Positions 2,140 to 20,658 of a stretch of 64,000 nt of DNA are shown one piece after another (the stretch's first letter is position 1; every line of letters begins with the position of its first letter). Location: the NCBI RefSeq assembly GCF_030384885.1, contig NZ_CP128613.1; one strand, given 5' to 3'. Under the pieces are notes generated by a model, which saw only the letters and a program-made list of their open reading frames with translations, had not been told where the DNA came from and did no database searches. The stretch is from Escherichia coli. Lineage in GTDB: Bacteria > Pseudomonadota > Gammaproteobacteria > Enterobacterales > Enterobacteriaceae. The position numbers and the translations under genes are program-made.

Positions 2140-2183
2140 TGGTGGGCTGGCGGGAGTTGAACCCGCGTCCGAAATTCCTACAT
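2140..2183. repeat. Direct repeat of the ssrA 3' end (att site of the ssrA-integrated island)
   Basis: tggtgggctggcgggagttgaacccgcgtccgaaattcctacat matches the terminal 44 nt of ssrA at 16498-16541 with one mismatch. Confidence 0.85.
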
Positions 2184-2310
2184 ACTAATAATATATCTTT
2201 AAAATCAAAATATTCTATTATTTATCAATGTATTATGTTTATGTGGTGTTAAGGGGTTTATATGGGTTTTAGTTCTCTGCCGCCAAAATGCCGCCAAAAA
2301 AATTGAATGG

Positions 2311-2346: not shown

Positions 2347-3114
2347 TTATTGTTTTATTATCTTAACGTGCGCCGTTCCTCCATTGACTTTTTCGAAATC
2401 TTGGAACAAGGCAGGGGCATCTTGAGTTACAATATCGTAAAGTTTTTCTGAAACTGTTCTCATTTCATAGTCACCCTGTATTGCTCCTCTCATTTCGAAG
2501 AAGTGTCGAATTGCGCGAGCATTTGCTGTGACGATTATTTTTGTCTCGGTTGCATTAGGCAATATAGAGCGAGAAGCGCTTCTTAAGGCCCGCATTTTTT
2601 CTTTTTTGTTCTCATACGATTGGTTTTCACGGATTTTTTTCAAGGATTGCTTATAAAAATCCAGACTACTTTCAATATGTTGGCACCATGACTTAAACAA
2701 TTCTGGGTCATTTTTTACTTCTATAGGGGCTACGAATTCAGCATCGGATTCATCATGATACTGTTGGGATAACTGGCTATATGAAAAACCAGCTCTATGC
2801 CGAACTAGCTGGTGTGTAAATGCACGAGATACCCCAGTAATTAAAAAGGTCCAGTTCAAATGTTCTAAGACACTTTCATGCCCTTGAATAATTAAATTGT
2901 TGATATATTGACTTGTAGTCCGTGGAGACTGCTTATCCTCTCCAAAAGACATATAACATAGCCTGCCAGCGGCCTCTACCAGAAGCTCAGCTTCGGTCGC
3001 CTGCCCTTTGCGAACCCATTGCAATGATGATGTGTTTAAAAAATCATCAAAAACATTACTTTCAAATGAAGGGTGTGATATGCATTTTACTGATAAATCA
3101 GAGATTTTTATCAT
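2347..3114 (-). CDS. ThyX-like flavin-dependent thymidylate synthase homolog (divergent)
   Basis: 255 aa. Contains EHLNWTF...HQLVRHRAGFSYSQLSQQY, matching the ThyX signature (RHR followed by a conserved Ser) as recalled from Thermotoga ThyX, plus an N-terminal AAGRLCYMSF block. It has a one-residue insertion after RHR and Gln where the SxRY Arg is expected. Start codon lies 2 nt after the upstream gene's stop; SD gggag. Confidence 0.7.
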   Translation of the reverse strand: MIKISDLSVKCISHPSFESNVFDDFLNTSSLQWVRKGQATEAELLVEAAGRLCYMSFGEDKQSPRTTSQYINNLIIQGHESVLEHLNWTFLITGVSRAFTHQLVRHRAGFSYSQLSQQYHDESDAEFVAPIEVKNDPELFKSWCQHIESSLDFYKQSLKKIRENQSYENKKEKMRALRSASRSILPNATETKIIVTANARAIRHFFEMRGAIQGDYEMRTVSEKLYDIVTQDAPALFQDFEKVNGGTAHVKIIKQ

Positions 3115-3116
3115 TT

Positions 3117-3902
3117 TTACTCCCGTATAGCTTTTGGGGTGCTTACTTTAGCATCAACCTTTGGTTCGTTTGATTTAGCATTTTTTAGTAATTCAACGGT
3201 GCTTTTTAGGCTATTTATTTCATTTTGTTGAACTTTTATTGTTAATTCAAGATCTTTTGTACTACTGACATTACTGGATACTATTTGAAATAAGAAAGGA
3301 ATTGCTAGGGTTATCAACGTTAGCATTAAGGCTGCTATCGCAATTATAAAGCCAGTTTTTTTCGCAATGATTTTATTGATTTCTTTCGGAAGTCGTTTAT
3401 CAAGTCCTGCAAAATCCTTTCCCATTCTAGAAAGTTGATCATCATCCAATTTATTTACGATTTTTCCTTGGTAACCTTTAGTCGGTATTATTGTTTTAAA
3501 TAATAACATTCGGGCTACTGCTGAATTTTGTGTCAATGAGAATGGTTCTTTTGACATATTTACAAGATATATTGAAATTATGCCATTATATCCAGGGTCA
3601 ATATGCCCTGGATTCGTCATGATAATTCCATTTTTTGATAGTGTGTTTCTTGGAAATATTACACCAGCTAAATTTTTTGCAAGTTGGAATTTTTCATTTA
3701 ACTCTAATATTACAGTTTCCCCTGGCATCAGGATATGGTTGTTACGTGTTTTTTTATTGTCTTGACAGTCTGGTATATGTATTGTTTTTACAGAGAGATC
3801 AATGCTTGCAGATTGAACTTTAAATGTTCCATTTAATACCGTTAATGGATCAAAAATGTTGCCTCGCTGAATTTCATCATTGATTTCTATTTCAGACAGC
3901 AT
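3117..3902 (-). CDS. dCTP deaminase/dUTPase-fold protein with C-terminal transmembrane helix and coiled-coil tail
   Basis: 261 aa. N-terminal ~140 aa carry Dcd-family motifs (SIDLSV; LMPGETVILE; GHIDPGYNGIISIYLVN; LTQNSAVARMLLF), comparable to the E. coli Dcd IDPGW-G region. The C-terminal ~110 aa contain a 22-residue hydrophobic segment (GFIIAIAALMLTLITLAIPFLF) followed by a heptad-like polar stretch. Confidence 0.7.
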   Translation of the reverse strand: MLSEIEINDEIQRGNIFDPLTVLNGTFKVQSASIDLSVKTIHIPDCQDNKKTRNNHILMPGETVILELNEKFQLAKNLAGVIFPRNTLSKNGIIMTNPGHIDPGYNGIISIYLVNMSKEPFSLTQNSAVARMLLFKTIIPTKGYQGKIVNKLDDDQLSRMGKDFAGLDKRLPKEINKIIAKKTGFIIAIAALMLTLITLAIPFLFQIVSSNVSSTKDLELTIKVQQNEINSLKSTVELLKNAKSNEPKVDAKVSTPKAIRE

Positions 3903-3928: not shown

Positions 3929-4942
3929 TTATAAATTAGCCAGAGGGTTTTTTATTACTGCATCTTCAAGATGCTCTGGGGAAAAATGTGCATAAATCAT
4001 AGTCATTTTTATATCAGAGTGGCCTAAAATATCTCGTAAAACCAAAATATTACCACCATTCATCATAAAATGGCTGGCGAATGTATGGCGCAGAACGTGA
4101 GTGCATTGGCCCTCTGGTAACTCAATGTCAGCTCGCTTTACTGCTCGTTCAAAGGCTTTTCTGCAAGGAGTGAATAACTTCCCTCTGTTCTTAGGGAGTT
4201 CGTCATACAGATCCTGAGATATCGGCACGGTACGGTTTTTCTTGCCCTTAGTCTTGGTATAGGTGATCCGGTATTTCGATAACTGATGGCCCTGCAGATT
4301 TTCGGCTTCACTCCAGCGCGCGCCGGTGGCCAGGCATATTTTTGTAATTAAAAGTAGACTGGGGCTTTGAGAATCAGCACAGGCATCCAGCAGACGTTTA
4401 ATTTCTTCCGGGGTCAGGAACGACAGTTCACCCTCAGCAATTTTAAATGTTGGCAGCCCGGCAAGCGGATTGGGGGCTGACCAGTGGCCCAACTTTTTCA
4501 GTGTGCCAAAAACAGATGATAGGTTGCGCTGTTCAAGGTTTACAGTGCGGGGCTTAACGGGCGACATAAGCGTGCCCTCTTCATTTCGCACTTCACCTTT
4601 TAGCCGCGCTTCTCGGTATTTAGTAAAATCACCGGCTGTCAGCTCTGAGGCGATGGGATCGCCTAGACCATTACAGATAATTCTAAGTTTCGCCATGAGG
4701 CGCTTGGGGTCTGCGAGTGTTTGACCATACAGGGAATACCACTGCTCAATTAATTCTGATAGGTGTCGCCGATCTTCCTTTTCCCCCAGCCATGGCTTTT
4801 TGTTCACTTCTTCCATTGTGAAGCTTTCAAAAGCAATGGCTTCGCCTTTCGTAGCAAATTGCTTACGCACGCGCTTGCCATTGCGTCCATGGGGATAGCA
4901 CTCGCACAACCATTTACCGTTTGGCTGTTTTCTGACAGTCAT
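3929..4942 (-). CDS. int: Phage integrase, tyrosine recombinase (P2/186-type)
   Basis: 337 aa. Catalytic residues in conserved context: ATGARWSE (Arg), HVLRHTF (His-x-x-Arg), MIYAHF (Tyr). Directly downstream of the cI-like gene as in the coliphage 186 lysogeny operon. Confidence 0.85.
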   Translation of the reverse strand: MTVRKQPNGKWLCECYPHGRNGKRVRKQFATKGEAIAFESFTMEEVNKKPWLGEKEDRRHLSELIEQWYSLYGQTLADPKRLMAKLRIICNGLGDPIASELTAGDFTKYREARLKGEVRNEEGTLMSPVKPRTVNLEQRNLSSVFGTLKKLGHWSAPNPLAGLPTFKIAEGELSFLTPEEIKRLLDACADSQSPSLLLITKICLATGARWSEAENLQGHQLSKYRITYTKTKGKKNRTVPISQDLYDELPKNRGKLFTPCRKAFERAVKRADIELPEGQCTHVLRHTFASHFMMNGGNILVLRDILGHSDIKMTMIYAHFSPEHLEDAVIKNPLANL

Positions 4943-7845: not shown

Positions 7846-8072
7846 TGGCTGATGCAATGGATCTCGTACAGCAGCGCGTTGAAGAAGAACGCCAACGCCA
7901 TATCCGTGCTGCCCGTGCCAAAACGCCGGGCGTGTCCCGCGTGCTTTGCATTGAGTGTGAAGCGCCAATTCCGCCAGCACGCCGCCGTGCCATTCCGGGT
8001 GTGCAGCTTTGCATTACCTGTCAGGAAATCGCAGAGCTGAAAGGCAAACATTACAACGGAGGTGCTGTATGA
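7845..8072 (+). CDS. TraR/DksA-family C4 zinc-finger protein (phage)
   Basis: CIECEAPIPPARRRAIPGVQLCITC: two CxxC pairs with the spacing typical of TraR/DksA zinc fingers, common in P2/186-like early regions. Confidence 0.65.
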   Translation: MADAMDLVQQRVEEERQRHIRAARAKTPGVSRVLCIECEAPIPPARRRAIPGVQLCITCQEIAELKGKHYNGGAV

Positions 8073-8926
8073 GCACCATCCTGAAATGGGCGGGAAATAA
8101 AACTGCCATAATGTCCGAACTGAAAAAACATCTTCCTGCTGGCCCGCGACTGGTTGAACCTTTCGCGGGTTCCTGTGCTGTGATGATGGAGACGGATTAT
8201 CCCAGCTATCTGGTTGCGGATATTAATCCTGATTTAATCAACCTCTATAAAAAGGTTGCCGCTGATTGTGAATCGTTTATATCTCGCGCCAGAGTTTTAT
8301 TTGAGATCGCAAACAGGGAGGTGGCTTATTACAACATAAGGCAGGAGTTTAATTACTCAACTGAAATTACTGATTTCATGAAAGCGGTATATTTCCTGTA
8401 TCTCAATCGTCACGGTTACCGTGGTTTATGTCGCTATAACAAGAGCGGGCATTTCAACATTCCCTACGGTAATTATAAAAATCCGTATTTCCCTGAAAAA
8501 GAAATTCGCGCATTTGCAGAAAAGGCCCAGCGAGCAACGTTTATCTGCGCCAGCTTTGATGAAACGCTGGCGATGTTGAAGGCGGGGGATGTGGTGTATT
8601 GCGATCCGCCGTATGACGGTACGTTTTCCGGCTATCACACTGACGGCTTCACTGAAGATGACCAGTATCACCTGGCATCTGTTCTTGAACATCGGTCATC
8701 AGAAGGACATCCGGTCATTGTTTCTAACAGTGACACATCCCTGATCCGTTCGCTGTATCGCAATTTTACTCACCACTACATCAAGGCAAAACGCAGCATC
8801 GGTGTGGCAGCTGGCGAGGGTAAATCAGCAACAGAAATCATTGCTGTTTCCGGGCCGCGCTGCTGGGTGGGATTTGATTATTCGCGTGGCGTGGATAGTT
8901 CTGCCGTGTACGGAGTACGTGCATGA
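8069..8926 (+). CDS. dam: DNA adenine methyltransferase (Dam-like, phage-encoded)
   Basis: N-terminal [11 protein letters not shown]...EPFAGS (AdoMet-binding motif) and the catalytic DPPY motif (VYCDPPYDG); start overlaps the stop of the upstream ORF. Confidence 0.8.
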
Positions 8927-11337
8927 GTCATGCCGATATGAACAACTGCTGCGGCTTTAACGAAGCTGCCGCATCGTTCTCATGGAACAGCCCGAAAAAG
9001 GCCATTAACCCTTATCTGGACCCGGCGGAAGTTGCGCCGGTTTCTGCGCTTTCAAACCTGATCACTCTGTACGCTACTGATAACGAGCAGGAACAACTGC
9101 GCCGCGAGGCACTGAGTGATCAGGTCTGGGAGCGTTATTTCTTTAATGAATCCCGTGATCCTGTCCAACGCGAAATGGAGCAGGATAAGCTCATTAGCCG
9201 GGCAAAGATGGCGCATGAGCAGCAGCGTTTTAATCCAGACATGGTCATTCTGACTGACGTCAACGCCCAGCCTTCCCATATCAGCAAGCCGCTGATGCAA
9301 CGTATTGAATATTTCAGCAGCCTGGGCAGGCCAAAGGCTTATTCCCGCTATTTGCGTGAGACGATTAAGCCATGTCTGGAACGACTGGAGCATGTACGCG
9401 ACAGCCAGCTATCTGCATCTTTTCGTTTTATGGCAAGCCATGAAGGGCTGGACGGTCTGCTGATCCTGCCTGAAATGAGTCAGGATCAGGTGAAACGCCT
9501 GTCTACCCTTGTCGCTGCGCATATGAGCATGTGTCTTGATGCCGCTTGTGGTGATTTGTACGCCTCCGATGATGTTAAGCCAGAAGAAATCCGCAAGACA
9601 TGGGAAAAGGTGGCTGCAGAAACCCTGCGACTGGATGTCATACCGCCTGCGTTTGAGCAACTCCGCCGGAAAAGAAACCGCCGCAAACCTGTGCCTTATG
9701 AACTCATTCCGGGTTCGCTGGCGCGTATGCTGTGCGCCGACTGGTGGTATCGGAAATTATGGAAGATACGTTGCGAATGGCGGGAAGAGCAGTTGCGTGC
9801 TGTCTGCCTGGTCAGCAAAAAAGCATCTCCCTATGTCAGCTATGAAGCCGTGATGCATAAACGTGAGCAGCGCCGTAAGTCGCTGGAGTTTTTCCGTTCT
9901 CATGAACTGGTGAACGAAGACGGCGACACGCTGAACATGGAGGATGTGGTAAACACCAGCAGCAGCAACCCGGCGCATCGCCGCAACGAGATGATGGCCT
10001 GTGTTAAAGGCCTAGAGCTTATCGCGGAAATGCGTGGTGACTGCGCCGTTTTCTACACCATCACCTGTCCGTCACGTTTCCATTCCACGCTAAATAACGG
10101 CAGGCCAAACCCGACCTGGACCAACGCGACAGTAAGACAAAGCAGCGATTATCTGGTCGGCATGTTTGCTGCATTTCGTAAGGCTATGCACAAAGCCGGG
10201 TTGCGCTGGTATGGCGTGCGGGTGGCTGAGCCGCATCATGACGGCACAGTTCACTGGCACCTGTTGTGTTTCATGCGCAAAAAAGACCGCCGCGCCATTA
10301 CTGCATTGTTGCGTAAGTTTGCCATCCGTGAAGACCGCGAGGAGCTGGGCAATAACACGGGGCCACGCTTTAAGTCTGAGCTGATAAACCCGCGCAAAGG
10401 AACGCCGACAAGCTACATTGCGAAATATATCAGTAAGAATATTGACGGGCGTGGTCTGGCTGGCGAGATCAGTAAGGAAACGGGTAAATCCCTGCGTGAT
10501 AACGCTGAATACGTTAATGCCTGGGCGTCTCTGCATCGTGTTCAGCAATTCCGCTTCTTTGGCATTCCGGGGCGTCAGGCTTACCGTGAACTGCGATTGC
10601 TGGCTGGTCAGGCGGCAAGGCAACAGGGTGACAAAAAAGCAGGTGCGCCGGTACTGGATAACCCGCGCCTTGATGCCATCCTGGCTGCTGCTGATGCTGG
10701 TTGTTTTGCCTCCTACATCATGAAGCAGGGCGGCGTACTGGTTCCCCGCAAATATCACCTCATCAGAACCGCTTATGAAATCAACGAAGAGCCGACCGCC
10801 TATGGCGATCACGGTATTCGTATTTATGGCATCTGGTCACCCATTGCAGAGGGCAAGATCTGCACTCATGCAGTGAAGTGGAAAATGGTTCGTAAGGCCG
10901 TTGACGTTCAGGAGGCGGCAGCCGACCAGGGCGCTTGCGCCCCTTGGACTCGTGGCAATAACTGTCCCCTTGCTGAAAATTTGAACCAACAGGAGAAAGA
11001 TAAATCAGCTGATGGGGACACCAGAACGGACATTACCCGCATGGATGACAAGGAGTTGCACGATTACCTGCACAGTATGAGCAAAAAAGAGCGCCGGGAA
11101 CTGGCTGCAAGGTTACGCCAGGTGAAACCGAAACGGCGTAAAGACTACAAACAGCGAATTACAGACCATCAGCGACAGCAGCTCGTCTATGAACTGAAGT
11201 CCAGGGGATTTGATGGCAGTGAGAAAGAAGTCGATTTGCTCCTTCGCGGTGGCAGTATTCCGTCAGGAGCAGGCCTGCGTATTTTCTATCGGAACCAGCG
11301 TCTGAAGGAAGATGATAAGTGGCGGAACCTGTATTAA
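8923..11337 (+). CDS. Phage replication initiation protein (P2 gpA-like rolling-circle endonuclease)
   Basis: 804 aa. HUH-type motif VHWHLLCF and active-site Tyr block [12 protein letters not shown], as in P2/186 gene A. Confidence 0.8.
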
Positions 11338-11429
11338 TTACGCGGGTTAACAATTCGTGCCCTTAATAATACCAGGCATATCAGGCTGATGAATGTAAAA
11401 AAACGTTTTACATCAGTAAGATTATTATA

Positions 11430-11449
11430 TACTGTAAATATAAACAGTG
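11430..11449 (+). promoter_or_regulatory. LexA (SOS) box upstream of small ORF plus dinI-like gene
   Basis: tactgtaaatataaacagtg: CTGT-N8-ACAG with an AT-rich spacer, ~40 nt upstream of the ATG at 11490. Confidence 0.65.
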
Positions 11450-11489
11450 GTTATCTATACAGTATTGCTTTGGTGTCATAGGAGGAAAG

Positions 11490-11678
11490 ATGCAGGACTA
11501 TTTTTTGGAGTCTTTGAAGCTCCAGCGCATTGATTTTTTTCTTAAGCTTGTAGCGGCTAGTGAGTGTAGTGATGAAGAGAAGGGGCTGGCTCTGCAGTGG
11601 GTTTCTGAACTGACAGATGAACTCATGGCAAAAATCAGAACCCACGAATACAACCGCTCAATGGATGTCATCAGCTGA
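11490..11678 (+). CDS. Hypothetical SOS-regulated small protein (possible Tum-like antirepressor position)
   Basis: 62-aa ORF with SD aggagg, immediately downstream of the LexA box; position analogous to 186 tum, but no recognised sequence similarity. Confidence 0.4.
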   Translation: MQDYFLESLKLQRIDFFLKLVAASECSDEEKGLALQWVSELTDELMAKIRTHEYNRSMDVIS

Positions 11679-11688
11679 GGTGACTTTT

Positions 11689-11922
11689 ATGCGCATTGAA
11701 ATAATGATCGATAAAGAGCAGAAGATTAGCCAGTCTACCCTGGACGCCCTTGAATCCGAGCTTTACCGCAATCTGCGCCCCCTGTATCCCAAAACGGTAA
11801 TCCGTATCCGTAAAGGTAGCTCTAACGGTGTGGAACTGACCGGACTGCAACTGGACGAAGAAAGAAAACAAGTGATGAAAATTATGCAGAAGGTGTGGGA
11901 AGACGACAGCTGGCTGCATTGA
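11689..11922 (+). CDS. DinI-family protein
   Basis: 77 aa, MRIEIMIDK...LDALESEL...KVWEDDSWL parallels E. coli DinI (MRIEVTIAK...IDALAGEL...ETWESADDWF). Confidence 0.7.
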   Translation: MRIEIMIDKEQKISQSTLDALESELYRNLRPLYPKTVIRIRKGSSNGVELTGLQLDEERKQVMKIMQKVWEDDSWLH

Positions 11923-12035
11923 TTTTGTCAATAGACGCTTGTTTTTACTAATCAAAAAGGGTTACATATGAGTGAGAGGCGATGTCAATCAGATATCGCC
12001 TTGTTTTTTGTCAAGAAAAGAATAATAGGCTAAAA

Positions 12036-12713
12036 ATGAAAATTAATAATGTAGCGTTACCAATATCTCTTGCTGTAATCCTAACTGGTTGCGTGCCACA
12101 TGCTTCTAACCGAAATATCACTGCTATTGAAGTGGTGAAGCCTGCTATTGGGCAAAGTGCTACCGCCTACATGGGCGATCCCATTATCACATCTGCTACT
12201 GGATTTAAAACGGACGTACTAGAACTTGGTGCGGCTAATGGTGCATTGTCTTCTATCGCTGCTGGTACATATTGCAGTGAGGGGAATGGAATTTACCGCA
12301 ATTATCATAACCCTCAAGCTGTTGCGTTAAAAAATCTCTATGGGCAAATCGGTAACTATGTTGATTATGTTAGTTACGATGCTGCAAAAAATGAGATATC
12401 ACCGCCAAATGGTACTTCTTATACTGCATCAGAAATTTCTATCAAACGTGTTCCTGATGGGCTGTGTCGAGTTAGTAACTCATTGGTTAAGACTATCGAA
12501 TACAATGGAAATGCAGGCGGTGTAATGAAGTTCACCTATCGTGAATTTGCAAACGATATGGCTCGTGCAGCATTTACAACAGATTTTTCTGTAGATTCTA
12601 AGGGAAGTGACGTTATCGCTTACAAAGGTGCCAAGTTCAAAGTGAACAAGGCTGATAACTCGTCTATTTCTTATACAATTATTTCTGGCTTTGACAAGGC
12701 TGTCACGTTCTAG
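12036..12713 (+). CDS. Prophage-encoded lipoprotein (moron)
   Basis: Signal peptide MKINNVALPISLAVILTGC with lipobox LTGC; the remainder is Ser/Thr/Asn-rich with no recognised domain. Confidence 0.6.
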   Translation: MKINNVALPISLAVILTGCVPHASNRNITAIEVVKPAIGQSATAYMGDPIITSATGFKTDVLELGAANGALSSIAAGTYCSEGNGIYRNYHNPQAVALKNLYGQIGNYVDYVSYDAAKNEISPPNGTSYTASEISIKRVPDGLCRVSNSLVKTIEYNGNAGGVMKFTYREFANDMARAAFTTDFSVDSKGSDVIAYKGAKFKVNKADNSSISYTIISGFDKAVTF

Positions 12714-12805
12714 GTTTCACGCTTACTGAGTATGTTACGATTTTGCACATTCTGCATAAACGCGCATGTCTATGCTGCATGAGATCGCATGATCGTTTGA
12801 GGATC

Positions 12806-12833
12806 TTTTGTGTTAAGGCCCGCCAGTTCTGGC
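12806..12833 (+). terminator. Rho-independent terminator after lipoprotein gene
   Basis: GC-rich stem gcccgcc/ggcgggc followed by tttt. Confidence 0.6.
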
Positions 12834-13038
12834 GGGCTTTTGCGTAGATCATGCAGGTGCATGAAAACCACTACATAAAGCGGGCAGGCGTGGCGGGGAT
12901 ACGAGCGCGCGTTATGACAAATAGATGATTAGCCTGATTTATTCACAGCTGTATAAATGATCACCTTGTAATTAGGTAAGTAATGTCTTCTATTATCATT
13001 GATTTGATAGGATTAATCTGTTTTTTGAGGATTAGAGG

Positions 13039-15375
13039 ATGATTGAAGAGGTAGTTATTGACAAAGTAGGCTCATATAATGGCCCTACTCAGCTTTTACA
13101 TGGGCTTTCTAAATTTAACTATTTATATGGAGCTAATGGTGCAGGTAAAACAACTATAAGTAAAATTATTAATGACCCTGAACAATATCCAACATGTCCG
13201 ATTAAATGGAAAAATAATATATCTTTAATAAGCTACGTATATAATAAAGATTTTGTTGAAAGAAATTTTAGTCAAGATAAAATTAAAGGTGTATTTACCC
13301 TTGGTAGCGATCTTAAGGAGGATGAAGAGAAATTAATATCTCTTGAAGAAGAAAAAAATAAGCTAATAGAATCTATTATAGCAAAGGAAAAGCTAATAGA
13401 TGGTGGTGATAATATATTAGGCGTTGTTAAACAAATCGAAGACCATGAAAAATCTTTTAAAGATTCATGTTGGAAGCAAAAAGTAAAACATGATAATGTG
13501 TTCTCAAAGGCTTTTGAGGGATTAAGGAATAGTAGTGAAAAATTTAAAGCTAGAGTGTTGGCTGAGTATGAAAATAACACATCAGAAGTTTGCTCAATAG
13601 CAGAGCTAATTGAGAAAGCAAAAATTGTTTTTTCTACTGAATTGACATCACATGTATCAATTACAATTCCATCCTTCAATGGGATAGATGATATTTTGAG
13701 TAGGGAGATTTGGAGTGAGCGTATTCTAGGGAAAAAAGACGTTAGTGTTTCAGACTTAATTACAATGCTCAATAACAGTGATTGGGTTAAGGAAGGTTTA
13801 ACATATTTCAGTAAATCTAATCCCAAGTGCCCATTCTGCCAGCAGGATGTAAATGATAATATATTTGATAATCTATCATCATATTTTGATAAAACATATG
13901 AGTTAAAAAAAAGAGAAATCGATGCATTGGTTTTACAATATGAACATCAACTTAATAATATCTTGCAGGCGATAGATGATATAAGGGCGATTAAATCTCC
14001 ATTCATAAATTATGAAGTGTTTGAGGATAAGGCTAAGATAGTATTATCTGAATTAAACAAGAATTTTGAATTGGCAAAAAATAAACGCAATTTTTTAAGT
14101 GAATCAGTTCATTTTAGTGACTTAAGTGAAGTTGTTGATGATTTTATTTCTTTTTTGAATGATTCAAATCTATTGATAGATAATAATAACAAAATACACA
14201 GTAATAGAAAGGTAGAGGCTAGTAATCTTTCTAATCAGATATGGGCATATATCGTAAAGGTGGAGTTAAAGTCTGAAATAACTTCTTACCGTAGCGAATC
14301 TGATAAATTTAATAGGAAGTTACAAGGGCTTAAATCTGGGTTAGAGGAAGACAAAAAGAAGTTAATGTTAAATGCTTCGGCTATTGAGGCAATTGAGTCT
14401 AATAAAACCAGTACTCTTCCAACTATTACAAAAATTAACAAGATTCTGGATTCTTATGGCTTCAAAAATTTTTACTTAAAACCCTCCGAAGATAAAAAGC
14501 ATTATATGATAGTGAGAGATAGTGGAGATAATGCTCGTACAACCCTTAGCGAGGGAGAAAAGACATTTATCACTTTTTTGTATTTTTATAGCCTTGTTAG
14601 AGGGAGTGATAATGCATCAGGTGTTTTAGATGATCGTGTTGTAGTATTTGATGATCCAATTTCAAGTTTAGATAGTGATATTCTGTTTATTGTAAGTTCG
14701 TTGATTAAAGATTTAATGGAGGATGTTCGTAAGGATGAAGGAAATATTAAGCAAATTATATTCCTTACACATAATATTTATTTTCATAAAGAGTTGACTT
14801 TTAATACTAAAAGATCCGGTAATCAAGCAATGAAAGAGGAGACTTTTTGGATTGTAAGGAAAAAAGGGAAGGTCTCATATCTTGAAAAGTGCGAATCAAA
14901 CCCAATAAAAACGTCTTATGATTTGCTCTGGTGCGAATTGAGAAGAACAGATATTAATAATAATACTATACAAAATACAATGCGAAGGATTTTGGAGAAT
15001 TACTTTAAGATATTAGGTGGGATGGATATTAGGAAGCTTGAATGTCATTTTTATGGTGATGAAAAAATCATATTTAAATCTTTAGTGTCATGGATTAATG
15101 ATGGTTCTCATTTTGCAGGTGATGATCTTTATATGAATTTAGATACGGAGTCTGTGCAAAAATATTTAATTGTTTTTCAGAAGATATTTGAGTGTAGTGA
15201 GCATACTGCCCATTACAAAATGATGATGGGTGAGTTTTATAGACCGTTAAATGAGTCACTTCATCTACAAGATGAGTTTGATATTGATGATAGTGCGAAT
15301 GATGAGTATGCTTCGTCAAAAATTGAGATAGAAGATGGAATAAACACATCTCTACATAGTAATACATATTTGTAA
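13039..15375 (+). CDS. RloC/PrrC-like ATPase with CxxC zinc hook (putative anticodon nuclease / abortive-infection protein)
   Basis: 778 aa, very AT-rich. N-terminal Walker A GANGAGKTT; long coiled-coil region containing CPFC; D-loop/Walker B-like VVVFDDPISSLDSD; C-terminal region with RRILENYF and downstream His residues, reminiscent of the PrrC/RloC Arg-Glu-His nuclease motif as recalled. Confidence 0.55.
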   Translation: MIEEVVIDKVGSYNGPTQLLHGLSKFNYLYGANGAGKTTISKIINDPEQYPTCPIKWKNNISLISYVYNKDFVERNFSQDKIKGVFTLGSDLKEDEEKLISLEEEKNKLIESIIAKEKLIDGGDNILGVVKQIEDHEKSFKDSCWKQKVKHDNVFSKAFEGLRNSSEKFKARVLAEYENNTSEVCSIAELIEKAKIVFSTELTSHVSITIPSFNGIDDILSREIWSERILGKKDVSVSDLITMLNNSDWVKEGLTYFSKSNPKCPFCQQDVNDNIFDNLSSYFDKTYELKKREIDALVLQYEHQLNNILQAIDDIRAIKSPFINYEVFEDKAKIVLSELNKNFELAKNKRNFLSESVHFSDLSEVVDDFISFLNDSNLLIDNNNKIHSNRKVEASNLSNQIWAYIVKVELKSEITSYRSESDKFNRKLQGLKSGLEEDKKKLMLNASAIEAIESNKTSTLPTITKINKILDSYGFKNFYLKPSEDKKHYMIVRDSGDNARTTLSEGEKTFITFLYFYSLVRGSDNASGVLDDRVVVFDDPISSLDSDILFIVSSLIKDLMEDVRKDEGNIKQIIFLTHNIYFHKELTFNTKRSGNQAMKEETFWIVRKKGKVSYLEKCESNPIKTSYDLLWCELRRTDINNNTIQNTMRRILENYFKILGGMDIRKLECHFYGDEKIIFKSLVSWINDGSHFAGDDLYMNLDTESVQKYLIVFQKIFECSEHTAHYKMMMGEFYRPLNESLHLQDEFDIDDSANDEYASSKIEIEDGINTSLHSNTYL

Positions 15376-15382
15376 TTTTATT

Positions 15383-15413
15383 GCAATTGCCAGTAGCAAC
15401 AATACGGTACTGG
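15383..15413. terminator. Bidirectional hairpin between convergent ATPase and portal-fragment genes
   Basis: 9-bp perfect inverted repeat ttgccagta...tactggcaa. Confidence 0.4.
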
Positions 15414-15424
15414 CAACTAATATT

Positions 15425-15964
15425 TTAGTTAAGCTCATATGGAGAAAATTCTATAAGTTTCTCCCCGAGCCATGCGTTTATTTCCATAAATCGTTTTTGC
15501 AAAGGAATTAATTCATTTATCACAAAAACCTTACTAGCCTTCTCCACATCCCCAAACCCCCCAACATTATTAGGCATTATCCCCATCATTTGCGGCGGCA
15601 CACGGTGTGCCGCCATCATGTCGTCCCGGCTCACGTTCTTGATATTCAGAAACTCATCCTTCGCCGCGACTTCTGACAACGGGATAATCTGAAGCCCGTC
15701 CTTTTTGCCGTTAGGAGAGTACATAAACAGGTTGCGGAAGTTGCCTGGCCCTTTGGCACTTTTCATTGCGTTGCGGAGGTTGTTCACATCTTCTTGGTTC
15801 TGTGCGGCATCGGTCATGTACATGATGAAACCTGCATGGCTGCCGTTGATGTAATACTTACGGCGGAACAGTGTGGCGGACTCGTTGAGCAGGGCTGACG
15901 GGATGGCAGAGAGATAACCTGGCAGGCCGTAGATCTCCTGGTTGATGTCCGGTTCCGCCCTTAA
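15425..15964 (-). pseudogene. Phage portal-like (P2 gpQ-like) gene fragment, 5'-truncated
   Basis: The reading frame stays open upstream of the first Met to ~15964 and then hits a stop with no start. Orientation and position (leftward, after the replication/cargo region) match P2 Q; the family assignment is from synteny and is tentative. Confidence 0.4.
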
Positions 15965-16153
15965 TCATCTCAACCATGCGTTACAGCTCGATCCCCGCTG
16001 TGGCGTGAAAAAAGACAAACAGCAGCTGGAGCGCAGACTGCGCAATGACAGCCGCTGACAGAACGTGCCCCCGCGCACGGGCGGCACGGGGTGGCGAAAG
16101 GCACAGCCACATCAAAACCCCGTCCACCGCCCTTTATTTCAGGAGAAAGCAGC

Positions 16154-16354
16154 ATGAAGTTTGTTGCGCCAGAACAGGCACCGGAACAGGCGGAAATCAT
16201 CAGAAACACGCCGTTCTGGCCTGATGTGGACCTGTCGGAGTTTCGCAGTGTCATGCGCACTGACGGCACGGTGACGCAGCCGCGTTTAAAGCAGGTTGCG
16301 CTGTCGGCAATTTCGGAGGTCAACGCACCGATACGACCATTTGCATTGATGTAA
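16154..16354 (+). pseudogene. Phage head-completion-like (P2 gpL-like) N-terminal fragment
   Basis: 66-aa ORF with SD aggaga; IIRNTPFWPDVD...PRLKQ...ISEVNA resembles my recollection of the P2 gpL N-terminus; truncated relative to ~170 aa. Confidence 0.3.
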
Positions 16355-16497
16355 ACAAAGTGAAGTTCTTCCATGTGAAACCTCTTTGCATGATTTCAAG
16401 ATGGCGACAGGCAAGATGGACGCAAAAGTCTGTCGCCATTTTGCCGCCACTACCAAAGAAAAAGGGGCTACGCTTTCACGTAACCCCTTGATTTATT

Positions 16498-16860
16498 TGG
16501 TGGAGCTGGCGGGAGTTGAACCCGCGTCCGAAATTCCTACATCCTCGGTACTACATGCTTAGTCAGTCTTTACATTCGCTTGCCAGCTGCGGACGGACAC
16601 GCCACTAACAAACTAGCCTGATTAAGTTTTAACGCTTCAACCCCAGGCAGGGCTTCCACGCGATCTCTTTTGGGTTTGACCTCTCTTGATCCCCGTCCTA
16701 AGAGCGGAGGCTAGGGAGAGAGGGCTCTAAGCAGGTTATTAAGCTGCTAAAGCGTAGTTTTCGTCGTTTGCGACTATTTTTTGCGGCTTTTTACGAGGCC
16801 AACCGCCCCTCGGCATGCACCTTGGGTTTCGCAAATCCCGTCGAATCCAGAATCAGCCCC
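16498..16860 (-). ncRNA. ssrA: tmRNA (SsrA)
   Basis: The reverse complement reads ggggctgattctggattcgacggg...gttcaactcccgccagctccacca, the E. coli tmRNA sequence, 363 nt. Confidence 0.95.
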
Positions 16861-17074
16861 AATGTGTAACGGTAAGTATACCAGATTCATGAGTGCCATG
16901 ACCAGCCTCAATGGCGTTATCGTTAAAGATTTAGCACCCGTGTAGCCTGATATTTATTCGATTAAGCAATGGGATGGCAACATTTGGGTCGGATGTGATA
17001 GCCAATAAGATGTTCATTCGCGCCGCCGGAGAGGGTGGCGCGGTGAGGAACTGGTCAATAATTGGAGTGCAGAT

Positions 17075-17557
17075 TTAACGGTGGGCGTTTTTCATGATAC
17101 GCGCTTTATCCACCTGCCATTCGCGTTCTTTGATGTCTGAACGTTTATCGTGCTGTTTCTTACCTTTAGCGACGCCGATTTTCACTTTGCACCAGGCATT
17201 TTTCCAGTACAGGGAGAGCGCCACTACGGTATAGCCTTCTCGATTGACGCGACCGTACAATGAGTCCAGTTCGCGCTGGTTGAGAAGTAACTTGCGGGTA
17301 CGGGTAGGATCGCACACCACATGCGTGGATGCCACAGCCATTGGCGTGATGTTAGCGCCAAACAGAAATGCTTCTCCATCACGTAGAAGGACGTAGCTGT
17401 CGCTGATATTGGCTTTTCCTGCGCGCAGGGATTTAACCTCCCAGCCTTGCAGGGCAAGTCCCGCTTCGAACTCTTCTTCGATAAAGTATTCGTGACGGGC
17501 GCGCTTGTTAAGCGCGATGGTCGCTGAACCAGGTTTATGTGCTTTTTTCTTCGTCAT
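17075..17557 (-). CDS. smpB: SsrA-binding protein SmpB
   Basis: 160 aa, [28 protein letters not shown]... Confidence 0.95.
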
Positions 17558-17688
17558 AAGCGTCGTGAATCATCGGTAATCTGAAATCGAAAACACCCCA
17601 TATCAATCCTGCGGGGGACAAGGCTCTATCTTAGCATGAACCCGATGTTACCCAGCGCCGGGATAGCGTTTTTTTTACAGCAGGATAA

Positions 17689-18165
17689 ATGATATTATTT
17701 GTTGGATTTTTGTTGATGGAAATTGTTATGCCTCAGATTAGCCGGACCGCACTGGTACCCTACAGCGCGGAGCAAATGTATCAGTTAGTGAATGACGTTC
17801 AGTCTTATCCTCAGTTTTTGCCGGGTTGTACCGGAAGTCGGATTCTGGAGTCCACTCCTGGGCAGATGACCGCGGCGGTAGATGTCTCTAAGGCTGGGAT
17901 CAGCAAAACGTTTACTACCCGCAACCAGTTGACCAGTAACCAAAGTATTCTTATGAATCTGGTGGATGGGCCGTTCAAGAAATTGATCGGTGGATGGAAG
18001 TTTACGCCGCTGAGCCAGGAGGCGTGTCGTATCGAGTTTCATCTCGACTTTGAGTTTACCAATAAGTTGATTGAACTCGCCTTTGGCCGCGTGTTTAAAG
18101 AGCTGGCGGCTAATATGGTCCAGGCTTTTACGGTTCGTGCGAAAGAGGTTTACAGTGCCAGGTAA
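17689..18165 (+). CDS. ratA: Ribosome association toxin RatA (SRPBCC family)
   Basis: 158 aa matching E. coli RatA/YfjG; divergent from smpB. Confidence 0.85.
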
Positions 18166-18445
18166 AATTGCCGTTGAGGTGGCTTATGCTCTACCTGAGA
18201 AGCAGTACCTGCAGCGCGTGACGCTGCAGGAGGGCGCGACGGTTGAAGAAGCTATTCGCACCAGTGGCTTGCTGGAATTGCGTACCGATATCGATTTAAC
18301 TAAAAACAAAGTCGGCATTTACAGCCGTCCGGCAAAACTGAGCGATACCGTGCATGATGGCGATCGGGTGGAGATTTATCGTCCTCTCATTGCCGATCCG
18401 AAAGAGCTTCGCAGGCAACGAGCAGAAAAATCAGCGAATAAATAA
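18155..18445 (+). CDS. ratB: RatB (YfjF)
   Basis: 96 aa from GTG at 18155 with SD gaaagagg; the ORF-track extension upstream overlaps ratA. Confidence 0.7.
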
Positions 18446-18453
18446 CAGACAGA

Positions 18454-18482
18454 AAAAAGGTGCTCATTGAGCACCTTTTTTA
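18454..18482. terminator. Bidirectional terminator between ratB and bamE
   Basis: aaaaaaggtgctc-attg-agcaccttttt hairpin flanked by A and T runs. Confidence 0.7.
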
Positions 18483-18506
18483 ACGTCTTTGAGAGCAACT
18501 TTATTA

Positions 18507-18848
18507 TTAGTTACCACTCAGCGCAGGTTTGTTATCAATGTTGGTCAACACCCCGCTACTGTTAAAGGTCAGCGTCAGCGTTTGCTGCGTTACACCTTCA
18601 TGACCTGGTTGCTGGCGGAAGACATAGAACCAGGTATTCGTACCAAATGGATCGGACATCAGCGGTGTACCCAATGCGTACGCAACTTGTTGTTGCGTCA
18701 TGCCAACACGTATTTTGGATACGTCGTTAGCGGTCAGATAGTTCCCCTGGTTGATGTCAGGACGGTAAACCACTCGCTCCAGAGTGGAACAGCCTGCGGT
18801 CAACATCAATAGTACTGCTGCTGCAGCAGTCAGCGTTTTACAGCGCAT
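18507..18848 (-). CDS. bamE: Outer membrane protein assembly factor BamE (SmpA)
   Basis: 113 aa, lipobox LTAGC, matches E. coli BamE. Confidence 0.9.
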
Positions 18849-18996
18849 AGTGATTTGATTCCTTTTCGGGCCCGAGCAGTACGTGGCTCATCTGTAATAT
18901 GCCGATGATAATAGACCTTTCATCACTTTAAAACCTTTTGCTTTCCGGTCTTACGGCGTTTTGCTGTTTACTCTGACCGTGAAGCAGGAAAAAAGT

Positions 18997-20658
18997 TTAC
19001 GCCGCAAGCAGTTCTTTCGCATTCGCCAGTGTGTTACGTGTGACTTCACTGCCACCAAGCAGGCGCGCCAGCTCTTGTAACCGCGCTTTTTTGTCCAGCG
19101 ACTCCATATGCGTTTCTGTCATCGCACCATCGGTTTCTTTGCTGACAAAATAGTGTTGATGACCACATCCCGCGACTTGTGGCAGGTGGGTAACACACAT
19201 CACCTGAGTTGATTCGCCGAGTTGACGCAGCAGTTTGCCGACAACTGCCGCTGTTGGACCGCTAATCCCTACATCCACTTCATCAAAAATCAGTGCCGGG
19301 GTTTCCATTTTACGCGCTGTGATGACCTGAATTGCCAATGCGATGCGGGACAATTCACCACCAGATGCGACTTTGGCAATAGGCTGCATTGGCTGACCTG
19401 GGTTGGTGGTTACCCGAAACTCAATACGATCAGCGCCGTCAGCGCCCAGGTGATGCTCGTCAAATTTAACATCAATCGTAAACTGCCCATGCGGCATAGA
19501 GAGTGCATGCATACTGTCGGTGATCAGCTGTGCCAACTCATTTGCATAATGCTGGCGTTGCTGGTGTAACGCGCGCGCCGTTTCCAGTGCCTGCTGATGA
19601 TGTTTCGTTACCGCCAGCGCGAGCGTTTCTTGTGAGTCGGCCTGATCGTCCAGTTGCTGCTGTTCTTCCAGTAGCGACTGGTAATACTGTGGCAATACCT
19701 CAGGGCTGACGTGATGTTTACGTGCCAGCGAAATCTGTTTTGAGATGCGCTGTTCAAGTTCAAACAGTCGGTTGGGATCAAGATCCAGACGATCGCAGTA
19801 GTGGCGCAGTTCGTCGCTGGCTTCAGCAATCTGGATGGTAGCCTCTTCCAGCATATCAAGTACGCCGGACAGTTTGCTGTCCATGCCAATCAATTCGCTC
19901 ACCAGTTGTTTAGCCGTGTAAAGCTGGCTTTGCAGGTTTGCGTCTTCGCCGTCGGCCATTAATGCCAATGCATTCTGGCTGGTGGTCAGCAATTGACCGC
20001 TGTTCGCCAGACGTTTGTACTCTTCGTCGATTTGCTCAAACTCTCCGGGCTGCGGATTAAATTCGTTCAGTTCTTTTAATTGGTATTGCAGCAGCTCCGC
20101 ACGAGCGGCGCGTTCCTGACTTAACTGTTGATGATGCGCGAGGTCGCGGCAGCTTTGATGCCACAACTGATAACGTGCGGTCATTTCCTGAAGCAGAGAG
20201 GTTTCATTGGCATAGCCATCAAGCAGGAATTTTTGGTGCTCGGGTTTGGTGAGTAATTGATGGGCGTGCTGACCATGGATCTGAATGAGCAACTGGCCCA
20301 GTTCGCGCAGTTGTGACAGTGGAACAGCTGTACCGTTGATAAAACCACGAGAGCGACCATCGCTACTGATTACGCGACGAAGCAGGCATTCACGGCCATC
20401 TTCCAGTTGGTTTTCTTCCAGCCAGCGCAGTGCTGCGGGTGTATCTTTCAGAGAAAAACGGGCGCACAGATCTGCGCGAGCAGCGCCGGTACGCACCATG
20501 TCGGCTTCAGCGCGACCGCCGAGACAAAGGCCCAGGGCATCTATTGCAATAGATTTACCCGCGCCGGTCTCGCCGGTGATTACGGTCATGCCGCTGTGAA
20601 AATCAATCTCAAGCTCACGAACGATAGCAAAGTTGCTGATGGTCAGTTGTGCCAACAT
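18997..20658 (-). CDS. recN: DNA repair protein RecN
   Basis: 553 aa, SMC-like with Walker A GETGAGKS. Confidence 0.95.

What the first reader, a model, noticed from the sequence alone, without database searches (positions are those of the whole stretch)
12714..13038. Structured intergenic region upstream of the ATPase gene with nested inverted repeats around a terminator
The 325-bp gap between the lipoprotein and ATPase genes is relatively GC-rich compared with both flanking genes. It contains a strong terminator hairpin (gcccgcc...ggcgggc) nested inside a second inverted repeat (gcatgatc ... gatcatgc), plus several GCATG motifs. This could encode a small RNA, a regulated attenuator, or protein-binding sites controlling the downstream ATPase.
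Basis: seen in the sequence. Interest (0 to 1): 0.25.

Follow-up and report, generated by a model that had tools for sequence, protein, structure and literature searches.

The report
Phage DNA-packaging (cos) site with terminator
The structured gap is the DNA-packaging (cos) site of a decayed P2-family prophage, with a terminator hairpin inside it, and it sits beside a known slot for swappable anti-phage genes; it is a known kind of element, not a regulator of the ATPase gene.

Summary
They do not form a small RNA or a control region for the ATPase.

Window 12764-12911 (148 bp) is the cos site of a Fels-2/186-type P2-family prophage.
- It is 100% identical to phage Fels-2.
- Its 19-mer GGCGTGGCGGGGATACGAG (12887-12905) is identical to bases 1-19 of Salmonella phage SEN8, annotated "putative cos site".
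- It aligns across the joined ends of phages 186 and P2.

In 45 related contexts this block is conserved (mean 87.5% identity) while both flanks vary (31 left and 41 right variants).

The GCATG motifs lie at fixed distances from the cut site in P2, 186, Fels-2-type phages and the satellite P4, so they are probably terminase recognition repeats. The hairpin (12815-12840, -21.8 kcal/mol, followed by a T run) lies at a position that shows compensatory changes across the family. It probably ends the LexA-controlled operon upstream.

The last 127 bp belong to the ATPase cargo, an AAA_13 / PADLOC PDC-S06 defence candidate in the published cos-to-portal hotspot. The prophage is a 14.4-kb remnant at ssrA. 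Already known; low interest.

The parts
11432..11447 (+). Perfect LexA box CTGTAAATATAAACAG, overlapping a promoter-like AT-rich stretch upstream of the 62-aa ORF. It corresponds by position to the SOS promoter p95 of phage 186.
   Evidence: 0 mismatches; sequence. The 186 record annotates p95 and a LexA site at the equivalent place after gene A.
11490..11678 (+). 62-aa ORF, the first gene of the SOS-controlled accessory operon (PHROG 698, function unknown). It is not similar to 186 Tum.
   Evidence: The same gene is annotated in Fels-2, SEN8 and E. coli prophages.
11689..11922 (+). DinI-like gene (TumB-like).
   Evidence: Pfam DinI, 1.3e-22. A 234-bp DinI gene is annotated at this place in Fels-2 and E. 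coli.
11982..12713 (+). The "lipoprotein" gene. It is a homologue of Fels-2 STM2726 (PHROG 1353, function unknown) and has an LTGC lipobox-like signal. It is optional cargo on the left side of cos and is NOT homologous to 186 orf97, despite the equal length.
   Evidence: 4.1e-105; no similarity to 186 Orf97. It is absent from E. coli TUM12355 and MINF_1D, which carry the same cos and ATPase.
12764..12911 (+). cos site (DNA-packaging and cleavage site) of a Fels-2-type P2-family phage. This is the sharply bounded conserved block.
   Evidence: 100% identical to Fels-2. Conservation boundaries in 45 contexts. Alignment across the joined ends of 186, P2, SEN8 and Cartapus. Family profile.
12763..12791 (+). 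Three phased (T/C)GCATG repeats at 12763-68, 12776-81 and 12786-91, which are offsets -124, -111 and -101 from the cut. Inferred terminase recognition repeats.
   Evidence: GCAT at offsets -123, -110 and -100 in all cohesive-end types, in the 80-sequence profile and in satellite P4.
12815..12841 (+). GC-rich stem-loop with an 11-bp stem and GTTC loop, followed by TTTT. It is the family's central cos dyad, and here it has the form of an intrinsic terminator for the upstream + strand operon.
   Evidence: -21.8 kcal/mol, z -4.6. In the family, the inner 6 pairs are paired in 77% of cells, against 29-42% when slid. Compensatory C-G/G-C changes occur at two outer pairs.
12849..12869 (+). TCATGCA-GG-TGCATG-AAAACC: an inverted pair of GCAT motifs plus the AAAACC box, at the start of the highly conserved cos core.
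   Evidence: (information content near maximum).
12887..12905 (+). Predicted 19-nt cohesive end GGCGTGGCGGGGATACGAG. The top-strand cut is predicted between 12886 and 12887 and the bottom-strand cut between 12905 and 12906.
   Evidence: Identical to SEN8 bases 1-19, annotated "putative cos site". 13 of 19 match the 186 cohesive end (GGCGTGGCGGGGAAAGCAT), whose annotation states the cut positions. The P2 record annotates cosL and cosR.
12912..13038 (+). AT-rich leader that travels with the ATPase gene. It is cargo-specific and probably holds the gene's promoter (possible TTAGCC-17-TATAAA at 12929-12957) and ribosome-binding site.
   Evidence: Conserved only in genomes with the same ATPase and unrelated in other cos contexts. 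The promoter is my reading of the sequence; the scan tool did not flag it.
13039..15375 (+). 778-aa AAA_13 ATPase, a candidate anti-phage defence gene (PADLOC PDC-S06), sitting in the hotspot between cos and the portal gene.
   Evidence: Pfam AAA_13 5.8e-164. PADLOC PDC-S06 1.5e-266, with weaker PrrC and LmuB matches.
15425..15823 (-). C-terminal fragment (132 aa) of the portal gene (P2 Q homologue). It marks the right edge of the hotspot and shows that the prophage is degraded.
   Evidence: PHROG 68 portal, profile positions 209-339 of 344. A full portal is present in MINF_1D.

Best explanation
Window 12764-12911 is the cos site of a Fels-2/186-type P2-family (Peduoviridae) prophage.

In a productive infection the phage terminase would recognise this block. 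It would cut the two strands 19 nt apart, between 12886 and 12887 on the top strand and between 12905 and 12906 on the bottom strand. This leaves the cohesive end GGCGTGGCGGGGATACGAG, and packaging starts from there.

The GCATG motifs are conserved cos elements at fixed distances from the cut: three phased copies upstream and an inverted pair next to the core. I infer that they are the terminase recognition repeats, analogous to lambda cosB.

The GC hairpin is the family's central dyad. In this lineage it has the form of an intrinsic terminator (stem plus T run). I infer that it ends the LexA-controlled accessory operon (62-aa ORF, DinI, STM2726-like lipoprotein) before transcription reaches the cut site and the cargo.

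Everything to the right of 12911 is exchangeable cargo in the known hotspot between cos and the portal gene. Here that cargo is an AAA_13 / PDC-S06 ATPase with its own AT-rich leader. This explains why the gap looks GC-rich: conserved phage backbone lies between two AT-rich acquired genes.

Shown here: sequence identity and homology to cos, the block boundaries, the conserved motif positions and the paired dyad. Inferred: cleavage here, which protein binds which motif, and termination.
For: Identity as cos
- The 148-bp core is 100% identical to Fels-2 and 98-99% identical to Salmonella and Klebsiella P2-like phages.
- The SEN8 record ends at the base equivalent to 12886. It starts with the identical 19-mer, annotated "putative cos site".
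- Cartapus annotates the same sequence as "putative cos site, homologous to the cos of P2".
- Window 12821-12899 aligns with 79% identity across the joined right and left ends of phage 186. The match runs into the annotated cohesive end. P2 aligns with 82% identity.

Position
- The block lies after gpA and DinI and before the portal gene, as in Fels-2, SEN8, Cartapus, 186 and intact E. coli prophages.

Selection on the block itself
- In 45 distinct Fels-2-type contexts from IMG/VR, conservation starts abruptly at 12764 and stops at 12911.
- There are 31 left-flank and 41 right-flank variants, and core identity averages 87.5%.

Motifs
- GCAT lies at offsets -123, -110, -100 and -28, and ATGC at -36, in every cohesive-end type.
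- The same holds in satellite P4, which the literature says shares only the cos region with P2 (PMC9122126; PMC9594776).
- The profile of 80 non-redundant sites recovers a ~56-bp core, matching the published 55-bp P2-family core (PMC5694545).

Hairpin
- It folds at -21.8 kcal/mol, z -4.6, and a TTTT run follows the stem.
- Family-wide pairing is 77%, against 29-42% when the partner is slid. Compensatory swaps occur (C-G 24 vs G-C 17; G-C 24 vs C-G 20), and the loop is variable.

Upstream operon
- A perfect LexA box lies at 11432-11447, as at 186 p95.

Hotspot
- The literature places a foreign-gene and defence hotspot next to cos, between cos and gpQ (PMC9122126; PMC5694545, citing Dodd & Egan 1996 and Nakayama 1999).
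Against: - No experiment on this sequence or on Fels-2 was available. The SEN8 and Cartapus cos annotations are themselves marked "putative".
- Positions 14-19 of the 19-mer (TACGAG) differ from P2 and 186 (AAGCAC / AAGCAT), so the exact bottom-strand cut is extrapolated.
- The prophage here lacks terminase, capsid and tail genes. Only fragments of portal and gpL remain. The site therefore cannot be used by its own phage.
- The terminator role is not proven. A terminator-like hairpin is no more common when the upstream ORF points toward cos (46%) than when it points away (43%, p = 0.83; ORF calling was crude).
- The 186 and P4 versions of the dyad lack a T run, and P2 itself has no dyad there. 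The hairpin may therefore serve packaging rather than, or as well as, termination.
- The consensus terminator scan did not flag it, probably because of its loop and tail rules.
- That terminase binds the GCAT repeats is inference only. I found no paper in the held library describing them.
Confidence: 0.9

Rival explanations
1. The region encodes a small RNA, or is a regulated leader or attenuator, that controls the downstream ATPase.
For: - The 148-nt block folds somewhat better than shuffles (z -2.4).
- The hairpin with a U run could be the 3' end of a short transcript.
- A weak promoter-like site and a weak terminator-like site lie on the minus strand inside the block.
Against: - The block is independent of the ATPase. 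It has 41 different right flanks in 45 contexts and is 100% identical in Fels-2, which has a different downstream gene.
- No Rfam match at E <= 1.
- The outer stem shows no covariation, and its outer three pairs are at background.
- The hairpin is 200 nt upstream of the ATG, with the phage genome end between them.
- Promoter-like hits in the neighbourhood are no more frequent than in shuffles (20 vs 18.2).
Confidence: 0.03
2. The block is cos by descent only. In this genome it is an inert relic, and the only part still working is the hairpin as a terminator and insulator between the SOS operon and the defence gene.
For: - The prophage is a 14.4-kb remnant bounded by the ssrA repeat (2146-2186 and 16505-16545).
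- It has no terminase, capsid or tail genes. The portal is reduced to 132 aa and gpL to a fragment.
- Other E. coli strains show different decay patterns of the same prophage type.
Against: - The cos block has no decay: it is 100% identical to functional-type Fels-2 over 148 bp.
- A resident or incoming Fels-2-type helper could still cut and package it, as P2 does with P4.
- Recent deletion could equally explain the intact sequence, so this argument is weak in both directions.
Confidence: 0.55
3. The conserved block is kept mainly as a recombination site for swapping defence cassettes, either as a shared homology arm or as a target of a site-specific recombinase, rather than for packaging.
For: - Homology breaks sharply on both sides, with highly diverse flanks.
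- The window's combination of STM2726-like gene, cos and this ATPase was not found in any of 5,426 complete E. coli genomes. The best match covers 82% in two pieces, which points to recombination at or near the block.
- Rousset et al. speculate that the cohesive ends promote exchange (PMC9122126).
Against: - The block coincides with the ends of mature phage genomes and with the published cos core. Packaging alone explains its conservation, including in P4.
- No dedicated recombinase is linked to it.
- Acting as a homology arm is a consequence of being conserved, not a separate function.
Confidence: 0.07

Closest known systems
cos site of Felsduovirus phages (Fels-2; SEN8 "putative cos site", NC_047753 bases 1-19)
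   Same: - The 148-bp block is 100% identical to Fels-2.
- The 19-mer cohesive end is identical to the SEN8 annotation.
- The position is the same: after gpA and DinI, before the cargo and the portal gene.
   Different: - Here the prophage has lost almost all morphogenesis genes.
- The cargo on the right side is different: an AAA_13 ATPase here, against STM2723.1 in Fels-2 and a hypothetical protein plus an HNH endonuclease in SEN8.
cos sites of phages 186 and P2 and satellite P4 (55-bp core; Ziermann & Calendar 1990, as cited in PMC5694545 and PMC9594776)
   Same: - The first 13 nt of the cohesive end are identical to 186 and 12 of 13 match P2 and P4.
- The blocks CTGCAT-AAAACC...GCGGGC and GCGCGC are shared.
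- GCAT repeats lie at the same offsets.
- A central dyad is present in 186 and P4.
   Different: - Positions 14-19 of the cohesive end differ (TACGAG vs AAGCAT / AAGCAC).
- The dyad here is longer and is followed by a T run. In 186 and P4 it has no T run, and P2 has no dyad.
- In P2 the accessory genes (old, tin) lie on the other side of cos.
- The 186 terminator t95b lies upstream of the GCAT repeats and is not the homologue of this hairpin.
Hotspot for foreign and defence genes next to cos in P2-like phages (Dodd & Egan 1996; Nakayama 1999; Rousset et al. 2022, PMC9122126)
   Same: Variable, AT-rich cargo with a candidate defence gene lies between cos and the portal gene, directly next to the conserved cos block.
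   Different: Nothing essential differs. This window adds one more combination. Cargo also varies on the left side of cos, between DinI and cos.
Lambda cos (cosN plus cosB with R sites)
   Same: By analogy only: a cut site flanked on one side by repeated short motifs and a central element, about 150 bp in all.
   Different: There is no sequence similarity and the terminase is different. The role of the GCAT repeats as binding sites is untested.

Membership tests
P2-family (Peduoviridae) cos site | A 19-nt cohesive-end sequence of the GGCG(A/T)GGCGGGGA... type | tested here: met
   12887-12905 is GGCGTGGCGGGGATACGAG. It matches SEN8 bases 1-19 at 19 of 19 positions, and 186 at 13 of 19 positions, the first 13 in a row. 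It was the commonest type (45 of 116) among the IMG/VR contexts.
P2-family (Peduoviridae) cos site | The conserved ~55-bp core around the cohesive end (Ziermann & Calendar 1990) | tested here: met
   Window 12857-12912 matches the family profile block from -30 to +26. It aligns 37/45 with P2 and 63/80 with 186. The published core was taken from citing papers only; the original paper is not held.
P2-family (Peduoviridae) cos site | Position between the right-end accessory genes (after gpA) and the portal gene, coinciding with the ends of mature genomes | tested here: met
   The gene order gpA, DinI, (cargo), cos, (cargo), portal is seen in the window, Fels-2, SEN8, Cartapus, 186 and MINF_1D. 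The deposited 186, P2 and P4 records, and the SEN8 record, begin at the homologous base.
P2-family (Peduoviridae) cos site | Staggered cleavage by gpM/gpP terminase, and the ability to direct packaging | not testable with these tools
   This needs terminus mapping of virion DNA or a cosmid transduction assay.
Intrinsic (rho-independent) terminator | A GC-rich stem-loop immediately followed by a U run, downstream of a co-oriented operon | tested here: met
   The stem has 11 bp and folds at -21.8 kcal/mol, followed by TTTT at 12838-12841. It lies 102 nt after the stop of the + strand operon. The consensus scan did not list it.
Intrinsic (rho-independent) terminator | Actual termination of transcripts at this site | not testable with these tools
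   The indirect test was negative: a terminator-like hairpin does not correlate with the orientation of the upstream ORF (46% vs 43%, p = 0.83).
Known structured RNA, small RNA or riboswitch (Rfam) | A match to a curated covariance model | tested here: not met
   No hit in 12714-13038 at E <= 1. The only real hit in 8000-20000 is tmRNA at 16498-16860.
   Pairs 1-4 are invariant sequence motifs with no informative variation. Pairs 6-8 are paired in only 41-63% of 80 sequences, close to the slid-control level of 23-40%.

The most novel reading that the evidence does not exclude
Two readings remain open.

(a) The extended cos architecture may be the real terminase-recognition module. It consists of three phased TGCAT repeats at -124, -111 and -101, a covarying central stem-loop at -70 to -49, and an inverted GCAT pair at -38 and -28. 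Helper phages and P4-type satellites share it at identical offsets. On this reading the stem-loop acts in the DNA, as a cruciform or bend, rather than as an RNA terminator. I could not find this architecture described in the held literature.

(b) The 14.4-kb ssrA island keeps a perfect cos, integrase, repressor, gpA and origin but no virion genes. It may therefore behave like a satellite that a Fels-2-type helper can package, spreading its defence cargo.
Probability: 0.15. Interest if true: 0.4.

Novelty: already known. Interest (0 to 1): 0.12.

Why it matters
- For annotation, it turns an apparently mysterious structured intergenic region into a named element. It also marks the exact left edge (12911/12912) of a defence-gene hotspot, which helps to delimit cargo such as the AAA_13 / PDC-S06 ATPase.
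- It shows that a GC-rich, repeat-rich gap between AT-rich genes in a prophage should be checked against cos sites before a regulatory RNA is proposed.
- The family-wide profile made here (fixed-offset TGCAT repeats and a covarying central dyad, also present in P4) gives specific positions to mutate when designing P2/P4-type cosmids or studying terminase recognition. That is an incremental gain, not a conceptual one.

Tried and rejected
1. I first assumed the 243-aa gene was the homologue of 186 orf97, which has the same length and place. BLASTP shows no similarity (E 4.5). It is Fels-2 STM2726-like (PHROG 1353). The 62-aa ORF is likewise not similar to 186 Tum.
2. I assumed the hairpin was the homologue of the 186 terminator t95b. 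The alignment shows that t95b lies upstream of the GCAT repeats. The window hairpin aligns instead with the 186 palindrome CGCCAGAGCTGGCG inside cos.
3. I tested whether a terminator-like hairpin goes with an upstream gene that reads toward cos. It does not (35/76 vs 13/30, p = 0.83). ORF calling was crude, so this is weak evidence.
4. Rfam search of 8000-20000 at E <= 1 found nothing in the region.
5. The 49-aa minus-strand ORF (12703-12852) is annotated "hypothetical protein" in a few genomes. I rejected it because the conservation boundaries (12764-12911) cut across it and conservation is uniform.
6. The direct repeat TTTGAGGAT (12796 and 13024) has its second copy in cargo-specific sequence at the ATPase ribosome-binding site. 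I treat it as chance.
7. A second small dyad next to the cut (CCCG...CGGG in P2, CCCA...TGGG in 186) is not kept in the Fels-2 type, read by eye.
8. Literature: Ziermann & Calendar 1990 and the Christie & Calendar review are not held. A full-text search for TGCAT with cos and terminase found nothing relevant.

Full report
**Observation**

The 325-bp gap (12714-13038) lies between a 243-aa ORF (11982-12713) and a 778-aa ATPase gene (13039-15375).

- GC content is 0.495 in 12700-12899. The upstream gene has about 0.39 and the ATPase gene 0.25-0.35. The last ~125 nt of the gap are AT-rich.
- The hairpin is AAGGCCCGCCA-GTTC-TGGCGGGCTTT (12815-12840). It folds at -21.8 kcal/mol with z = -4.6.
- The outer inverted repeat is GCATGATC (12787-12794) and GATCATGC (12847-12854).
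- Five GCATG lie within 12764-12863. The whole window has about one per 500 bp on both strands.

**Genomic setting**

- A tmRNA gene lies at 16498-16860 on the minus strand.
- A 41-nt repeat of its 3' end lies at 2146-2186 and 16505-16545. This delimits a 14.4-kb island at ssrA.
- The island carries an integrase (3929-4942), a repressor-side early region, the P2-type replication gene A (8923-11337), a DinI-like gene (Pfam 1.3e-22) and the ATPase.
- Of the virion genes, only a 132-aa C-terminal portal fragment (15425-15823) and a fragment of head-completion gene L remain.
- It is therefore a decayed P2-family prophage of the Fels-2 type. Related E. coli strains carry the intact version with the same ATPase (MINF_1D) or differently decayed versions (TUM12355).

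**What the gap is made of**

BLAST shows that the gap is a mosaic.

- Bases 1-198 (12714-12911) are 99% identical in Fels-2 and in many Salmonella and Klebsiella P2-like phages.
- Bases 51-325 occur in E. coli prophages that carry the same ATPase but lack the 243-aa gene.
- The shared part, 12764-12911, is 100% identical to Fels-2.

I collected 116 distinct contexts from IMG/VR with a cos-derived pattern. Among the 45 with the same 19-mer, conservation starts abruptly at 12764 and ends abruptly at 12911. There are 31 different left flanks and 41 different right flanks, and the core averages 87.5% identity. Selection therefore acts on the 148-bp block itself, independently of either neighbouring gene.

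**Identity of the block**

- Window 12821-12899 aligns with 79% identity to the junction of the right and left ends of phage 186. The match runs into its annotated cohesive end. It aligns with 82% identity to the P2 junction.
- The Felsduovirus SEN8 record ends at the base equivalent to 12886. It begins with GGCGTGGCGGGGATACGAG, annotated "putative cos site", which is identical to window 12887-12905.
- Phage Cartapus annotates the same sequence as a putative cos homologous to P2 cos.
- The position, after gpA and DinI and before the portal gene, is the same in all of these phages.
- A profile of 80 non-redundant sites recovers a ~56-bp highly conserved core (-30 to +26). This agrees with the 55-bp P2-family core attributed to Ziermann & Calendar 1990 (PMC5694545; PMC9594776).

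I conclude that the block is the phage cos site.

*GCATG motifs.* GCAT sits at offsets -123, -110, -100 and -28 from the cut, and ATGC at -36, in every cohesive-end type (P2, 186, Fels-2). The same holds in satellite P4, which the literature says shares only the cos region with P2. That points to a packaging function. I infer that these are terminase recognition repeats, but this is untested, and I found no description of them in the held literature.

*Nested outer inverted repeat.* This is simply two of these motifs in opposite orientation. Its first four or five pairs never vary, and its outer three pairs are at background level across the family. Nothing supports a selected stem.

*Hairpin.* It occupies a fixed central position (-72 to -47).
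- Across the family the inner six pairs are complementary in 77% of cases, against 29-42% when the partner is slid.
- Two outer pairs show C-G/G-C swaps (24:17 and 24:20).
- The loop varies.

It is therefore a genuinely maintained dyad. In the Fels-2 type it is long, GC-rich and followed by TTTT, which is the form of an intrinsic terminator. It lies 102 nt after the stop of a + strand operon that begins with a perfect LexA box (11432-11447), at the place of the 186 SOS promoter p95. I infer that it ends that operon.

Caveats on the hairpin:
- The 186 and P4 versions lack a T run, and P2 has no dyad.
- Terminator-like form does not correlate with the orientation of the upstream gene (46% vs 43%, p = 0.83, crude ORF calls).
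- A DNA-level role in packaging therefore cannot be excluded.

**Right of the block**

From 12912 onward the sequence is cargo. The 127-bp AT-rich leader travels only with this ATPase. The ATPase is a full-length AAA_13 protein (5.8e-164) and matches PADLOC defence candidate PDC-S06 (1.5e-266).

The slot between cos and the portal gene is a published hotspot for foreign and anti-phage genes (Dodd & Egan 1996 and Nakayama 1999, as cited in PMC5694545; Rousset et al. 2022, PMC9122126). The slot to the left, between DinI and cos, also varies. It holds an STM2726-like gene here and in Fels-2, other genes in SEN8, Cartapus and 186, and nothing in MINF_1D.

The exact combination seen in the window was not found in 5,426 complete E. 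coli genomes. This fits frequent exchange around cos.

**Corrections to my own first guesses**

- The 243-aa gene is not a homologue of 186 orf97.
- The hairpin is not the homologue of the 186 terminator t95b.

**Verdict**

The interpretation as a small RNA, attenuator or regulator of the ATPase is not supported; only the terminator reading survives, and only as an inference. The element is a known kind and essentially a known sequence. Because the prophage has lost its own terminase, the site is probably idle here unless a related helper phage is present. Interest is low.

Noticed in passing
window 2146-2186 and 16505-16545: A 41-nt direct repeat of the tmRNA (ssrA) 3' end, with one mismatch. 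It delimits a 14.4-kb island. The island keeps the integrase, repressor, early and replication genes and cos, but has lost almost all virion genes. It is close in size to satellite P4.
   Followed up: partly
window 2347-3902 (- strand): Two adjacent genes lie between the left att repeat and the integrase. One is thymidylate-synthase-like (255 aa, PHROG 85, 2.4e-51) and the other dCTP-deaminase-like (261 aa, PHROG 1663, 4.7e-28). They may be a nucleotide-depletion or modification type defence or cargo pair at a second variable slot of the prophage.
   Followed up: no
window 13039-15375: The ATPase (AAA_13, PADLOC PDC-S06) has a CPFCQQ motif in its middle and weak matches to PrrC (2.5e-11) and LmuB (9e-14). 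This resembles RloC/PrrC-type ABC-ATPase defence proteins. Its mechanism was not examined.
   Followed up: partly
window 15381-15419: A 9-bp inverted repeat, TTGCCAGTA...TACTGGCAA with a 12-nt loop, lies in the 49-bp gap between the ATPase stop and the portal stop. It may be a shared terminator at the right edge of the cargo, comparable in place to tQ/tW of P2 and 186.
   Followed up: no
window 11432-11447: A perfect LexA box, CTGTAAATATAAACAG, lies upstream of the 62-aa ORF and DinI operon. The accessory genes left of cos are therefore probably SOS-induced, as in phage 186.
   Followed up: partly
window 15425-16354: A portal C-terminal fragment (132 aa) is followed directly by an N-terminal fragment of head-completion gene L (16091-16354). 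Terminase, scaffold and capsid genes between them have been deleted, and everything after L is missing up to ssrA.
   Followed up: partly
IMG/VR loci L012-L131; P4 locus L134: Family-wide cos architecture: TGCAT repeats and a central covarying dyad (core GCCAGnnCTGGC) lie at fixed offsets from the cut in most P2-family phages and in P4, but the dyad is absent from P2 itself. I found no description of this in the held literature.
   Followed up: partly
window 117-1979: A 620-aa ORF just outside the island matches PHROG 21473 (score 1098) and, weakly, a tail-fibre family. It may belong to another prophage or to an adhesin-like gene next to the att site.
   Followed up: no
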